Of a DNA stretch of 54,058 bases, positions 48,569 to 53,805 are shown in pieces; position 1 is the first letter of the stretch, and each line of letters starts with the position of its first letter. The notes beneath the pieces are model-generated. The model had not been told where the DNA came from. It searched no databases and saw only the letters and a list, made by a program, of their open reading frames with translations. The stretch lies in NCBI GenBank assembly GCA_001938485.1, contig MQRK01248077.1, positions 1-54,058 of the forward strand. Direction: 5' to 3'. This stretch comes from Girardia tigrina. Taxonomy: Eukaryota. A program made the translations under genes and the position numbers.

Positions 48569-51559
48569 TAAGGAATTTTAAATGAAATAGATATAGACAT
48601 TCTAAGGTTGGAAGCAGTAAACTAGTTTAAAATTTCTTAAATTATATGAATTCTTTACATTCAAATGTAAAATCCATAGTACAATTAGACTTTTAAACAT
48701 TTTGATCTTTTGATAGAATGATAATCATTTTAAAACTTGAATCTAAAGAAAAAAAATCTTTTGCTGGATCGCTATAAACTTAAGCTATTGAAAAAACATT
48801 CCTCTTATATTGTCCTCCGAAACTCAACATTCTTCAAACATCAATTGTTCAACATCTTCACGATCTTAGAAAAGTCAATGGGTACTGACAAGATGTATCT
48901 TATGAATTTATTAATTTAGGAGCTGAATGACGTGTAAACTCATTCGAAATTGCTGCAACATATGTGTGATGACCGTTTTATTAGAATTGTTACACGTGAA
49001 GAAACGTGGATATATTTTAACAATCCAGATAAACAAAATCAGTGATTTGACACCAGAAAATAGTGCAGCGGTAGTAAATCGTGATCAATTATCAAAAGAC
49101 AATTTGTGTATTTTGGAAATTCAGAAAGTGAAATTCACTTGAAAATATTTTCAGATAGTCAAATGATAAACCAACCAAGTTTTGATCCATCGAAAGCGTG
49201 ATCTTCTGCAGGAAGATCACGTGAAATCACCAGACAAACCCAAGAAAGAAAAAAAATTTTCAGCCATTGAACTTCTTCTACACACAGCTTATGGTACAGA
49301 ACTTGTGTCATCAACTTTCACATTTCCCGTTCCATTGCTCACTTCTTTTTGAGACCGCTACTTCAACAATCAATGCAAGTCGAAAATGGGTAGCGGGTAC
49401 CTTTTTGCTTCTAAAAAAGAATGGTATAGACCAACTCCTTATAAATGAATTCAAAATGTTCGCAGAGTTAACGTTATAGTGTTGATGCGGTGCTGCGATG
49501 TTGGTTGGAGAGGGGGGTCTCTGGATCGGTAACAAAATGTAACAAAATCAATTTCACCACTAGAAGGGGCCTCGGCAATGCTAGAATGATGGTATCGGAC
49601 GATTTTTAAATTTCAACTTGATAACATGATTCAATAAAGGTTGCTGATTTATTTGCAACATTTTTTCATTTTATTAATCAACAATTTTTTTCATGAAAAA
49701 AATTCTTTTTAAGATTTATTGTTCTAATTCACTACTGTAAGGGTTGCTTGTAAATGATGTATTATATGATGAAATGTATGGTGCTGAGTATTTTGTCTCT
49801 CCCAAAAATAATTGCCAACCGTTAACTAATTAAAATTAAATTACAAAAAAAATTCGATTATAATTTACAAAAATCGAATTAATTTAAAAAAATATTAAAT
49901 TACATAATTTGTTTTACTGAGCTATTTTAAGAATTTGGTTTGGTAGTTATTTTAAATTTGAATGAAATGCAGAAGAAAATTACAGAATTTTTTGTATTAA
50001 ATAAATCCTTTGGAAATAGTATTTCATCTTCTCCTAACAACTACGTTTACAATCATTTCAACACAAATACAAATTAATTTTTACAGCACAAAAAATCTTT
50101 TAATTCAATAATTTCAACAATTTTCACTCCATTCTCAAATCAAAACCTAACTGTCAAAACATTTATGTCTACAAAGAACAACAGTTCACTTTAACGATCA
50201 GAAATTCGAACACAATTATCTACCTAAGAGACTTGCACCAGTAAAAACTTACATTAATTTTATCATATTATCATGAATGCAACCGCAACGTAATGGTTTT
50301 GAATTAACAACAATCATTACGTAGGAGTTGTTATTTTTACAAAAAAAAATTTATTATTAAGTATTATTATTTTTAACTTTTTGTACAATAAATGTCACAG
50401 TGATATACAAAATGACGGCATAGTTACAAAAATTTTGATCCAAATGTAAAGTAATTTCATTGATTTCGTTCGAGGTAATTGATTCTGAATTAAATTTCAC
50501 TTAACAACATTATTTTTACTTTGTTTCTGTGTAGTGTTTGATTGTTGATTGAGTAAGAGATTTCAAGAATCATGTTCATCATCAAAATTTTTTCAAGGCC
50601 AATAGAGTTCAGTCATTGTTTTGTGAAAAATTTCAATTCTTTGCGGCGATGTGTTGTCTTGTGTCTCGTGACTATTCGGGGCTTGTTCAGAGTCGATAAT
50701 AATAGTAGTAAGGCCGAAAGTGATAGAGAAAATCGCGAAAAACATTCGAATAAATCATCCTCGAAAGCCAACTCGAGTAGCGTGTCTACTGCAAACGATA
50801 AAGAAAATTCTTTCGTTAAAATCCCGACGACAATCATCTTCAAACAAGCGATTTAAATGACTCGCCAAAATATCTGTGAATGCTCATCAAATATCGTCAG
50901 AAATGTTTTACAATTTCAACACTGCACATTACAACAATAATAATAATCAAAGACGCTTTCAAAATTGATTCTGTATATAAATCAATATTATTACAAATAT
51001 GATCTATCAATCTTCAATTGTATAAATTCTGAATTATGCAAGTGCTCTGTCAATTGTGCTTTGACCTGAATTGTGCAAGTGTCTGCACGATCGATATCAG
51101 CAAATTAATTGTTTTGTGCTCATTGTTTGAGATAAGATTTTCTGTGTTTTGTTCAAGAGAAAGTGCGTTTGGTTTGCCAAATATTTTTTAAATCATTATT
51201 TTTCGGAAAGAAAATACTTGCAATTTCTAAATTATTTTTTTAGAATTTTTTCTAGAATAAAGGTAGAAACTGGTTTTTTTCAGTGAAAATTGAATTTATC
51301 AGTTGATTCGTTTTTGCCAAATCAGGAAAAACTAATTTTTATTTTGAATTTGTAAGTGATTACAATTATCAATTAGAGTTGATTTTGTTTAAATAAAATA
51401 AAAAAGATGGTTTTGATTGGCGCGAAAACGATTATTGTTGTTGATATAATTTTTTTTGAAAATATATCTTTTGAGTGGAGATTACGAGTTGTCAATTTAT
51501 TGATCATTCTTTTCGAAATTGATTTTAAAGAAATAAAAAACTGGTTTATAACATTCTAT

Positions 51560-52150
51560 GTCGATCTATTAAATCTTTTCGGACTGTAAATAGAAAAACG
51601 AAGCACTATTGATTCGTGCAACGACATATTACCGAATAATATTAAGAAAATCCCCGAATTTAATGTGGAAAATAATTCCAAAGAATTGGAAAAGAATTTA
51701 AATATGATTAATCGAAAAAATATGAAATGCGTTTTTTTTTGGAAAAACATCAAATGGGAAAAGTGCCGTGATCAATGCAATGCTTGGAGAAAAAGTGCTT
51801 CCGTCCAGCAAGGGCCGCATTATATCCTGTTTCGTGAGTGTTGAGGGTTCCAACAATCTCAATGAGCATTTTACTGATTCTGTCCGTCAGAATCACGAAA
51901 TACAGCAACTTCAGTCCTTAGCCAATGAGCAAAAGAAGGATTCGTGTCAAATTAATGATCTTGTCCGTGTGTATTGGCCGAGACATAAATGTCGCTTGTT
52001 GGAGAATGATCTGGAAATATTCGACAGTCCAGGTGTTGATTATACGAAGGAGAACGATAAGTGGATCGATAAGTATTGCGAAGATGCGGACGTATTTGTG
52101 TTGGTGTTGGATTGTACCTCAACACTCAATCAAACAGAGAGAGATTTTCC
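51560..52150 (+). pseudogene. MFN: Intronless mitofusin (Marf/Fzo) GTPase-domain fragment
   Basis: RKNMKCVFF/GKTSNGKSAVINAMLGEKVLPS..CFVSVEG..LVRVYWP..CRLL..DSPGVD..WIDKYCEDADVFVLV. Frameshift in the poly-T at about 51735. Confidence 0.9.
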
Positions 52151-52214
52151 TAAACAATTATCAGCAATTTATCGCAGAAATATCGAAGAATTAGCCGTAT
52201 TAATAACAGTCACT

Positions 52215-52380
52215 CTGAAACTCGATATCATCAGTGGCGTGGCCGATGAACAGACTCGTATTAGAAATGTCAGAAAATTTATGCCAGCTAAAAACGCGAT
52301 ACGATCCGGGATTTTTGGGACGAGGAATTGGAGAATCGAATTCGATCAGCAAGAAAGACGGGAGAACCCCCTGATCGGGC
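52215..52380 (+). pseudogene. NDUFS4: NDUFS4 fragment fused in frame to the mitofusin fragment
   Basis: LDIISGVADEQTRIRNVRKFMPAKNAIRSG..WRIEFDQQERRENPLIG. Confidence 0.88.
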
Positions 52381-53805
52381 CGAAGTCACGGGTTATAACA
52401 GAGAAAGATATCGAATTCGCCGTTGAGGAGAAAGGAGAAATTATGCTAGCTGACATATTTGACAGTGGTGAGCATCGAATTTTGAGTTCCCCGCGTCCCG
52501 CAATACACCCCCCGTCGTCAGCCCGCCGCGGCCACTTCGCTGCGATCGCTCTTGCACAACCAGTCATCATTTTCATAACTTCCATAAATGCTCTTCCTTT
52601 TCTCTTTAATAGCTCGAACCAATACTGTTGTACAATGTTGCATTCATTTTATTGTTTGGCATTAGTATTAATACCATCAAGAGCGAATGTCAGACATTGA
52701 GGAGAAAAATTTGGATCACGTTGTGCTTTGCTCTGATTGCTGGATTCAGTGGTTAGTGGCTCAATTATCGCATTTGTTTGACGAACTAATTGATTCACAA
52801 ATCATTTCTTTATCCCCCAATAAAACAAAGTGACTTCTCTTGCGAAACCCTACAACGATCAGAACACTCTTCATCCTCTGATTTTTAAACAAAAGCAATT
52901 GATTGAAACAGTCTTTACTTTTCATTTTGATTGTTTTTAGTTGTAAAATTGTTACACATTTAAAAAAATGGAAAGAACTTTTGGTTCACCCTAATATTAT
53001 AATGAAGATGACGCTAGATTTGTTTAAATTGATAGCAATATATTTTAGTGAGTGTCATTTGCATTTTAAAAGTAACTTGTTCTCATTTTAAAAATATTTG
53101 AATGAAAATTTTTATGGATGGGGAAATATAAATTAATGTTTTCATTCTTATCACGGTCATTTAAAGTTACAAAATCAAATTCCCTCCACTGTACAAAATA
53201 TATAATAAAGTAAAAAATTAAATCGATTTTAGTGTATAACACCAAATTTATATTTAACAACTATTATTAATGTGCCGATAAATATATTTATTTATATTAA
53301 AATCAGCATATAAAATATAATATATAATTAGATATGTATATAATTTGTTAAGCTATATTAGTTAATATTGGTCAACGATTTACTAAGCAATGAGTTATCA
53401 TTACAAGATAGAGATATCAAATCAACTCTAAATTACTCCAATGCCAATAATTCAAAGGATTCACGTCTTTTCCTGAAACTGGAATAACCAGAATCTGTCT
53501 AGTAGAACAAAACACATTGGATATTTTTATTAATCAACGGACGCTGATTATTCTTCGACGCCTAAAAAATCGCCAATCAAAATAAATCGCGAACCCTTAT
53601 CAAAATCATCGATCAACTTAATCGCCAACCATACTATGGTATGTTTGTTTTAATATTCACTTTATGCGAATATTTGGTTTTTGTTTATGTGTTGCTGTGG
53701 TGGAGTGGTTTTCTAATTATCTTGTTTTTCTTTTAGATCGTTGTAATAATTTGTGTTGGGTTTGAATAAATCATTTCGATTACTTCACTCAACGATCATA
53801 AAATT

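What the first reader, a model, noticed from the sequence alone, without database searches (positions are those of the whole stretch)
50285..52568. Copy C: mitofusin-NDUFS4 chimera sharing its 3' module with copy B
B and C share both the NDUFS4 piece (clearly similar, diverged nucleotides) and the terminus, but differ in 5' cargo. This fits stepwise acquisition of new upstream sequence onto a fixed end. C also holds unidentified coding-like pieces at 50570-50860 and 52380-52470.
Basis: partly seen in the sequence, partly recalled or inferred. Interest (0 to 1): 0.75.

Follow-up and report, generated by a model that had tools for sequence, protein, structure and literature searches.

The report
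Repeat that stacks host mRNA fragments
In this AT-rich animal genome a short GC-rich repeat sits at the end of a chain of same-direction scraps of unrelated host gene transcripts (mitofusin, NDUFS4, PAICS and others); it is likely a non-autonomous mobile element, present in likely hundreds of copies, that likely gains new scraps round after round by reverse-transcriptase template switching, which would make it an unusually prolific gene-shuffling device.

Summary
The chimera is real and richer than reported. Between 51440 and 52467, 1017 of 1028 bases match host transcript contigs: mitofusin 5' part, an internal mitofusin piece, NDUFS4, an unnamed 37-nt piece and PAICS. All read the same way, and most joins show 5-12 nt microhomology. 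They abut a ~110-bp GC-rich core shared with copy B (82%) and, weakly, copy A. In an independent-looking DNA run the core is about 500-1,400 times deeper than unique sequence. Other copies keep NDUFS4-PAICS with different upstream cargo. The piece next to the core has diverged most from its parent mRNA (16% vs 5%, p=0.002), which supports stepwise 5' gain. Not supported: 50285 as a boundary, and the core as the end of cargo, because two antisense transcript pieces continue to its right and the whole block splits a mariner (~49450-52885). The mitofusin copy carries a stop and a frameshift, so it is not a working gene. Best reading (0.5): a non-autonomous retroelement capturing mRNA by template switching. 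Helitron-type DNA capture is the main rival. No autonomous partner, true ends or parental introns could be found.

The parts
48809..49455 (+). Left half of a decayed mariner that the C-containing block interrupts (end approximate)
   Evidence: Collinear with window mariner 21406-20713
49734..50135 (.). Separate high-copy repeat nested in the block, family unidentified
   Evidence: X1 bin depths 10,362 / 3,912 / 1,227 vs 27 in the next bin; no long open frame
50644..50694 (+). Transcript piece V (51 nt, unnamed gene)
   Evidence: X8 contig loose ends before 50644 and behind 50694 (table 7); sense read by hand from the flanks
50727..50835 (+). Two pieces of one transcript W (50727-50778 and 50793-50835) in swapped order
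   Evidence: X16 record 10, 2 and 0 differences; joint 'goes back 109, 41 letters between' also in X3
50832..51040 (+). Transcript piece U (unnamed; orientation likely +)
   Evidence: X3 record 18, letters 441-647 of 809, 12 differences
51338..51448 (+). AT-rich block shared with copy A (29415-29515), with a 23-bp identity and an E2F-like GCGCG motif (motif name recalled); likely element-borne rather than mitofusin's own upstream DNA
   Evidence: 23-mer matched only by LTR copies among 11,666 pairs of AT-rich windows; local score 49 vs best 40 of 3,544 window segments; X3 mitofusin contig has 498 nt upstream of 51440 that do not match
51440..52147 (+). Mitofusin 5' part to GTPase domain, collinear with the mRNA, decayed (stop at 51588, extra T near 51732)
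   Evidence: PDB E 7e-37; X16 record 11 letters 21-697 match 51473-52147 with 35 differences and 4 gaps; 10 of 14 listed differences change the residue
52136..52209 (+). Internal mitofusin piece joined across a ~577-nt deletion; 12-nt overlap
   Evidence: Same X16 record 11, letters 1274-1347, 0 differences
52218..52378 (+). NDUFS4 piece (may begin ~52203 in a 6-of-7-nt microhomology with mitofusin, read by hand)
   Evidence: PDB E 1e-13; parental continuations at 52218 and 52378/9 in X1, X3, X8
52373..52409 (+). Unnamed transcript piece Y (37 nt); 6-nt overlap with NDUFS4
   Evidence: Loose ends before 52373 in X3, X8, X16 and behind 52409 in X3, X8
52413..52467 (+). PAICS (SAICAR synthetase) piece, the most diverged cargo
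   Evidence: Top PDB hit 4ja0 195-218, E 0.27; X16 record 13, 9 differences in 55, flanks in PAICS register
52467..52575 (+). Shared GC-rich core: C-rich top strand, G-rich bottom strand, weak 6-bp hairpin; high copy
   Evidence: 82% to B; A similar, 0 of 3,000 shuffles reach the score; X1 depth 39,831 at 52474, 36 contigs carrying one variant, 5 contigs with other sequence before 52467; strongest G4Hunter score in the window
52651..52700 (-). Antisense transcript piece R1 reading toward the core
   Evidence: X16 record 14, 5 differences in 50; by hand all three + frames hit stops in the RNA-only flanks and one - frame is open (tables 7-8)
52764..52799 (-). Antisense transcript piece R2 reading toward the core (orientation likely)
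   Evidence: X3 loose ends on both sides, also touched by X16; one - frame open by hand; Atlas no hit
52893..52997 (+). Right end of the interrupted mariner, with its terminal inverted repeat
   Evidence: 73% to 20674-20560; 92% over 25 nt to the other mariner end
39565..39665 (-). Copy B core
39690..39800 (-). Copy B NDUFS4 piece, shorter at its 3' end
   Evidence: PDB E 0.006; 23 differences in 99 nt vs C, split 6/7/10 by codon position
40049..40752 (-). Copy B 5' cargo, ThiF/MOCS3-type, spanning an N gap
   Evidence: Pfam ThiF E 1e-32 and 9e-11
30270..30349 (+). Copy A diverged core
   Evidence: Third hit of a B+C profile, weak (E 1.7); pairwise vs C 0 of 3,000 shuffles, vs B 4 of 3,000

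Best explanation
Copy C is a decayed chain of same-sense host transcript pieces abutting a repeated GC-rich core, and is likely one member of a non-autonomous retroelement family that likely gains, swaps and loses cargo when a reverse transcriptase switches template at short microhomologies. SHOWN: the pieces match transcript contigs, abut without spacer, read one way, overlap at joins, are decayed, and the core and its nearest cargo are far more repeated than the distal cargo. INFERRED: an RNA of the element is copied starting from the core, which acts as the cis signal for an autonomous partner not identified here. cDNA synthesis runs outward, jumps onto unrelated mRNAs or skips within one (the 577-nt mitofusin deletion), and the product re-inserts. 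Copies that land behind, or carry, a promoter block are amplified again, so cargo next to the core is oldest and commonest. B would be a sister lineage that replaced the cargo upstream of NDUFS4 and lost ~117 bp inside the module.
For: 1017 of 1028 nt between 51440 and 52467 match RNA-guess contigs, with no spacer DNA. The mitofusin piece is collinear with the mRNA contig over 675 nt and starts within ~33 nt of that contig's 5' end. Overlaps: 12 nt (mitofusin/mitofusin) and 6 nt (NDUFS4/Y) coordinates; ~5 nt (Y/PAICS) and 6 of 7 nt (mitofusin/NDUFS4) read by hand from loose ends. LTR-mediated retrocopies show a median 6-bp microsimilarity, two-gene chimeras and further amplification (PMC5131818, Results part 1). 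Age gradient 16.4% vs 4.7%, p=0.002, against ~1% (16/1603) between the window and four well-matching X1 contigs. Depth gradient 39,831 > 10,236 > 3,067 > 78, against 27-74 for unique-looking contigs. Paralogous contigs change cargo at 52218, 52224, 52354, 52467. Neutral-looking decay: 10 of 14 listed mitofusin differences non-synonymous, including a stop. Both B and C are altered at the NDUFS4 M (140/149) and Q (149/149) columns. B's 46 nt before the tail align with C's PAICS end plus core start (p=0.009).
Against: The parental genes were not obtained (no genome held; best protein relatives 47-52% identical), so intron loss is not shown: an intron-poor host would weaken the RNA argument. No LTR flank, poly(A) tail or target-site duplication was found. 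No RT partner carrying the core was found in the window. The two antisense pieces right of the core are not predicted by one-directional template switching. A promoter-like block upstream of the transcript start is easier to carry as DNA. The B/C changes at the M and Q codons use different bases, and pN/pS was 0.53 over 36 codons (inflated by an indel), so separate captures of NDUFS4 are not excluded. Summed contig depth is not a copy number (tool caveat). The RNA status of X3, X8, X16 is a guess. No listed contig bridges the mitofusin-NDUFS4 join (32 of 1,136 pieces shown). The gradient rests on one short piece (55 nt).
Confidence: 0.5

Rival explanations
1. A non-autonomous rolling-circle (Helitron/Helentron-like) DNA element. 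The core would be the terminator region, the AT-rich block shared by A and C the left end, and cargo would enter between them by gap repair or template switching on DNA or cDNA.
For: GC-rich region with a small conserved stem; two conserved modules around variable cargo, as in HINEs (PMC7492417 passages); Helitrons capture promoters and fragments of several genes and amplify them to thousands of copies (PMC4778049 passages); no target-site duplication found.
Against: No CTRR within ~90 nt after the stem in B or C; A has one ~45 nt away rather than ~11. The stem folds no better than shuffles as DNA (z 0.22, -0.12, 0.39). No subterminal inverted repeats between the shared block and the core. Cargo is wholly transcript-matched, in 37-160-nt pieces. 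No RepHel frame was recognised among the window's listed ORFs (only 19 were scanned with Pfam).
Confidence: 0.25
2. Two-sided growth. The core would be a linear or break-prone duplex (G-quadruplex-forming bottom strand) whose two 3' ends are each extended on mRNA templates by an RT or a Pol-theta-like enzyme, giving cargo that reads toward the core from both sides.
For: In C, all oriented pieces left of the core are sense on +, and both pieces right of it are sense on - (frames read by hand). The C and B cores are the two strongest G4Hunter sites in the window. Short patchwork pieces, microhomology and one order swap. The mariner is split only after the right-hand pieces.
Against: Right-hand open frames in B and A are not significant (7% and 18% of background). 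Right-hand sequence is low-copy (depth 183) and may be an older cargo block into which C inserted (even odds on orientation). It does not by itself explain amplification.
Confidence: 0.13
3. Pack-TIR gap filling: breaks inside cut-and-paste transposons were repaired by copying from other chimeric loci, so C would be a Pack-mariner and B a Pack-MITE.
For: C lies inside a mariner and B between a 31-nt inverted pair at 38731/42093. Pack-TIRs show microhomology at breakpoints (PMC8277862 passages).
Against: B and C share the core but sit in unrelated TIR families, and A sits in none found. The window is dense in transposons, so insertion into one is expected. This explains placement, not the origin of the module.
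Confidence: 0.07
4. Assembly artefact, contaminating cDNA, or a functional chimeric gene.
For: The 324-codon frame is open across four joins. One piece is identical to the mRNA (0/74). The assembly has an N gap with a duplicated 76-mer inside B.
Against: The main pieces differ from mRNA by 5-16%, with a stop, a frameshift and mostly non-synonymous changes. Contigs of two runs bridge NDUFS4-Y-PAICS, and one extends just into the core. Invariant NDUFS4 residues are lost. The frame has no start before the frameshift.
Confidence: 0.05

Closest known systems
LTR-mediated chimeric retrocopies (Tan et al. 2016, PMC5131818; abstract and Results part 1 of 3 read)
   Same: Partial, intron-free-looking mRNA pieces; microsimilarity of about 6 bp at switches; more than one parent gene; no poly(A) or TSD; further amplification as non-autonomous elements.
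   Different: There the flanks are LTR retrotransposon sequence, with one or two parent genes and few copies. Here no LTR flank was recognised, at least four genes lie in one kilobase, the core is likely present in hundreds of copies, and there is an age gradient and opposite-sense cargo beyond the core.
Gene-capturing Helitrons (HelibatN3/NUBPL; PMC4778049 passages) and HINEs (PMC7492417 passages)
   Same: GC-rich stem near one end, promoter-like 5' cargo, amplification to high copy, variable interior between conserved modules.
   Different: No CTRR ~11 nt after the stem, weak stem, no subterminal inverted repeats; cargo is a patchwork of very short transcript-matched pieces rather than contiguous genomic DNA.
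LINE template-switch chimeras (Magnaporthe MGL/WEIRD; PMC2104539, abstract read)
   Same: Different transcripts fused head to tail onto a fixed 3' part; double jumps.
   Different: Those end in a recognisable LINE 3' part with direct repeats and fuse two or three RNAs. Here the 3' part matches no known element, no duplication was found, and the cargo is protein-coding mRNA.
Pack-TIR / Pack-MULE elements (PMC8277862 passages; PMC6431247 passages)
   Same: Gene fragments inside a transposon, microhomology at breakpoints.
   Different: The shared, amplified part here is an internal GC core, not a TIR pair, and sister copies sit in different TIR families.

Membership tests
LTR-mediated retrocopy | Microsimilarity at fusion points | tested here: met
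   12 and 6 nt coordinates; ~5 and 6/7 nt by hand; none established at the PAICS/core join
LTR-mediated retrocopy | Flanked on both sides by LTR-retrotransposon sequence | tested here: not met
   No blastn match between C's flanks and the window's LTR/Gypsy sequence; flanks are mariner halves. An LTR family absent from the window is not excluded.
LTR-mediated retrocopy | Loss of parental introns | not testable with these tools
   No genome held; collinearity with mRNA contig over 675 nt only
Helitron | CTRR-3' about 11 nt after a terminal hairpin | tested here: not met
   None in B or C; A has CTGG/CTAG ~45 nt downstream
Helitron | Stable GC-rich subterminal hairpin (16-20 nt) | tested here: inconclusive
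   A 6-bp stem is shared by B and C but no stronger than shuffles as DNA
Helitron | 5'-TC end, insertion between A and T, no TSD | tested here: inconclusive
   True left end not defined; longest repeat between the two mariner junction zones was 5 nt
Helentron/HINE | 11-12-bp subterminal inverted repeats in left and right modules | tested here: not met
   No 13-mer inverted match (up to 2 mismatches, at least 4 G/C) between A's left block and core; only scattered chance-level matches in B and C
LINE-mobilised chimera / SINE | Poly(A) or simple-repeat tail with target-site duplication | tested here: not met
   No such tail after any of the three cores; age could have erased it
LINE-mobilised chimera / SINE | tRNA-, 5S- or 7SL-derived head, or 3' end shared with a LINE | tested here: inconclusive
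   ARAGORN 0 genes; Rfam only chance hits, E 3.9 or worse; no eukaryotic repeat library available
Penelope-like / retrozyme / Terminon | Hammerhead or other self-cleaving ribozyme in the terminal repeat | tested here: not met
   No ribozyme family in the Rfam scans
Pack-TIR | Cargo enclosed by one TIR family in all copies | tested here: not met
   C in a mariner, B in an unrelated 31-nt TIR pair, none found around A

The most novel reading that the evidence does not exclude
An undescribed class of mobile element: a ~110-bp G-quadruplex-type core whose two DNA ends are extended outward by reverse transcription of whatever mRNAs are at hand, so each copy grows converging arms of sense-inward gene scraps, and successful arms are amplified hundreds of times. 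It would be a standing, genome-wide exon-shuffling library built from the transcriptome.
Probability: 0.15. Interest if true: 0.88.

Novelty: new variant of a known kind. Interest (0 to 1): 0.62.

Why it matters
Gene-fragment capture by transposons is well known in plants and bats, but animal RNA-based cases are mostly single events with one or two parent genes (PMC5131818). Here one small core carries at least four genes' pieces per kilobase, in a datable order, at likely hundreds of loci, with three copies in 54 kb. With a full assembly this gives a large natural series for testing how multi-gene chimeras arise (RNA vs DNA template, order of gain, role of microhomology). It could also show whether such copies supply new genes or small RNAs against their parents. 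Practically, these repeats will inflate gene counts for mitofusin, NDUFS4, PAICS and others in this genome's annotation.

Tried and rejected
Whole genome: none held. Parent proteins: residues 150-300 of the C frame gave 0 hits among 407 candidates; the NDUFS4 piece 0 among 4; mitofusin 474 hits among 631 candidates, the 120 listed at 47-52% identity; representatives search 217 hits, the 13 fetched all ordinary NDUFS4, best 58%. So the lineage is not settled beyond 'animal', and my planarian/flatworm terms were guesses. Core pattern: 0 in viral contigs, 0 in metagenomes; C protein 0 confirmed of 126 pattern matches in metagenomes; phages none. A looser 16-base pattern gave 56 viral loci, GC median 0.67, none extending beyond ~26 nt, so chance. 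GC-rich stretch 105-225 as a fourth core: rejected (p 0.41-0.92). Core as tRNA, ribozyme or Rfam RNA: no. Core as conserved coding sequence: no Pfam or PDB hit in the open frame, and indels vs A. Strong hairpin: 7 of 8 RNA folds and 3 of 3 DNA folds no better than shuffles; only B forward reached z -2.2. Right-hand frames of B and A: not significant; PDB/Pfam nothing. ORF 50557-50856: no usable hit. An 11-nt direct repeat near 50190 and 52851 is of chance size and was not taken as a TSD. Earlier findings of this scan: nothing relevant in 4 look-ups. Literature: 10 searches listed no description of this element; the library lacks most subscription papers, no supplements were opened, and without the species name a genome paper or repeat-library entry could be missed.
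Full report
Setting. The window is AT-rich (18-42% GC per kb) eukaryotic DNA with 18S rRNA fragments at 48235-48594 and many broken Gypsy-, hAT- and mariner-like frames (families named from my own knowledge of the translations). Mitofusin and NDUFS4 hits are animal, but the best mitofusin relatives are only 47-52% identical, so the lineage was not determined. No whole genome is held.

The observation. The frame 51726-52700 holds a mitofusin GTPase piece (E 7e-37) and an NDUFS4 piece (E 4e-13). Copy B, on the minus strand, shares the NDUFS4 piece (79.6% over 108 bp) and a GC-rich stretch (82.4% over 74 bp), and has ThiF/MOCS3-type cargo upstream. A third, diverged GC stretch lies at 30270-30349: weak by a B+C profile (E 1.7), but 0 of 3,000 shuffles reach its score against C. 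It follows eIF2B-alpha-like cargo (Pfam IF-2B E 0.085; otherwise a recalled resemblance). So the core observation holds.

Anatomy from public runs. One search listed 23 runs, 16 holding part of the stretch and none half of it. I laid four on 49600-53600 at 80% likeness: X1 (DNA guess) and X3, X8, X16 (RNA guesses), all as contigs. Four well-matching X1 contigs differ from the window at 16 of 1,603 letters, so X1 is the same or a very close organism; the tool warns it may be the source sample. One X16 contig matches 51473-52147 (letters 21-697, 35 differences, 4 gaps) and also 52136-52209 (letters 1274-1347, 0 differences): mitofusin with a ~577-nt internal deletion at a 12-nt overlap. Its 5' loose end resembles a cDNA template-switch adapter (recalled), which suggests a real transcript end. 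NDUFS4 continues in parental register before 52218 and after 52378. A different transcript covers 52373-52409 in three runs. Another covers 52413-52467; its best PDB match is silkworm PAICS 195-218 (E 0.27), and the contig's flank continues with the residues that follow in that PAICS alignment. These five pieces cover 1017 of 1028 bases from 51440 to 52467. Only 40 of 271 variant rows, 24 of 487 loose ends and 32 of 1,136 pieces were displayed, so absences in these tables are weak.

Repetition and order. X1 summed depth is 27-74 on unique-looking contigs, 39,831 at 52474, 10,236 at 52355 (bin mean 25,713), 3,067 at 51779 and 78 at 52022. As ratios that is roughly 500-1,400, 140-370, 40-110 and 1-3. 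The tool cautions that summed depth is no copy number, but 36 contigs carry one variant at 52474. A contig of depth 186 carries NDUFS4-Y-PAICS at 90% identity behind different upstream sequence. Others change cargo at 52224 (with B-like letters), 52354 and 52467, and one leaves mitofusin at 51941. Divergence from parent RNA is 9/55 for PAICS, next to the core, against 35/737 for mitofusin (p=0.002). It is also modular in both directions, because the mitofusin 5' part is multi-copy while the full mitofusin-to-NDUFS4 arrangement is rare.

B versus C. They differ at 23 of 99 NDUFS4 bases, 6/7/10 by codon position; pN/pS over 36 codons was 0.53 (affected by an indel). Both lack the M found in 140 of 149 and the Q found in 149 of 149 database NDUFS4 hits, but through different bases. 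B's 46 nt between NDUFS4 and the tail align with C's PAICS end and core start (p=0.009; 12/24 in the PAICS part). A single capture with a later ~117-bp deletion in B is the simplest reading. Separate captures are not excluded, since the parent sequence could not be fetched.

Decay. Of the 35 mitofusin differences 14 were displayed; 10 change the residue, one being a premature stop in the window at 51588, and the window has an extra T near 51732. C is not a working fusion gene.

Boundaries. 50285 is not a boundary: a contig of depth 27 runs through it unbroken. The shared module ends near 52575, where depth falls to 1,493 and then 183. Beyond it two more transcript pieces lie on the opposite strand (52651-52700, 52764-52799; frames read by hand), so in C cargo converges on the core. 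The same test on B and A by open-frame length was not significant (7%, 18%). The whole block interrupts a mariner between ~49450 and ~52885, includes an unrelated high-copy repeat (49734-50135), and shows no clear duplication. Upstream of mitofusin, C shares an AT-rich block with A: a 23-bp identity otherwise reached only by LTR copies among 11,666 window pairs, and score 49 against a best background of 40. An X3 mitofusin contig has 498 unmatched letters upstream of 51440, so this block is likely not mitofusin's own upstream DNA, though that contig could itself be another element copy.

The core. It is C-rich on top and G-rich below; C and B give the two strongest of 10 G4Hunter clusters in the window and A the fourth. 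A 6-bp stem is shared by B and C but is no more stable than shuffles. It matches no Rfam family, tRNA, phage, viral or metagenome sequence.

Mechanism. Wholly transcript-matched, same-sense, microhomology-joined pieces point to an RNA template and a switching reverse transcriptase. This is what Tan et al. describe for LTR-mediated retrocopies (PMC5131818) and, with other hallmarks, what is reported for LINE chimeras (PMC2104539, abstract). I put this at 0.5. The defining flanks of either family are missing, so I do not file C under them. Helitron-type capture (0.25) fits the two conserved modules, the promoter-like block and the amplification (PMC4778049 and PMC7492417 passages), but fails the CTRR and subterminal-repeat tests. 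Two-sided growth from a break-prone core (0.13) uniquely explains the antisense right arm but is seen in one copy only. Pack-TIR gap filling (0.07; PMC8277862 passages) explains placement only. Artefact or functional gene: 0.05. Intron loss, the decisive fact, could not be tested.

Novelty. Ten library searches listed nothing describing this element; of six papers fetched I saw passages of four, the abstract of one, and the abstract plus a third of the Results of one, and no supplements. It works like known cargo-carrying transposons but differs in cargo number, piece size, likely copy number and lack of standard termini: a new variant of a known kind, interest 0.62.

Noticed in passing
window 5145-6760 (+): Another intron-free-looking chimera: BTB/K-channel piece (E 7e-10), HSP90-family piece (E 3e-29), LRR piece (E 2e-12), with no GC core found nearby.
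   Followed up: partly
window 43185-43484 (-): Isolated glycosyltransferase-64 (EXT-type) fragment, E 2e-11; probably further cargo.
   Followed up: no
window 48135-48594 (-): Degenerate 18S rRNA fragment (Rfam 48235-48336 and 48360-48594) just left of the broken mariner.
   Followed up: no
window 38731-38761 and 42063-42093: 31-nt inverted pair (87%) enclosing copy B; a similar 26-nt pair at 31138/31735.
   Followed up: partly
window 40124-40325: 76-nt exact duplication around a 50-N gap inside B's cargo: likely an unmerged scaffold overlap.
   Followed up: no
window 28938-29398: Gypsy LTR (81% to 17692-18198) ends within ~10 bp of where A's shared upstream block begins.
   Followed up: partly
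window 39812-40009 and 41150-41270 (-): B holds further unidentified coding-like pieces; by recall one resembles an APC11/RBX1-type N-terminus and one a bHLH basic region. No Pfam or NCBIfam hit for the first; the second was not scanned.
   Followed up: partly
window 30351-30420 (+): Right of A's core, a short stretch resembles (recalled) the motif preceding LINE reverse transcriptases, with a frameshift; not tested.
   Followed up: no
window 49450-49620 (+) and 52820-52885 (-): Both outer edges of the block inside the mariner begin with ATG-led, coding-like sequence pointing inward; outside or unsupported by the displayed read tables.
   Followed up: no
window 51975-52147: An X8 contig matches at only 87% (22 differences), suggesting a second mitofusin paralog in the host.
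   Followed up: no
window 49734-50135: Unidentified high-copy repeat, X1 depth up to 10,362.
   Followed up: partly
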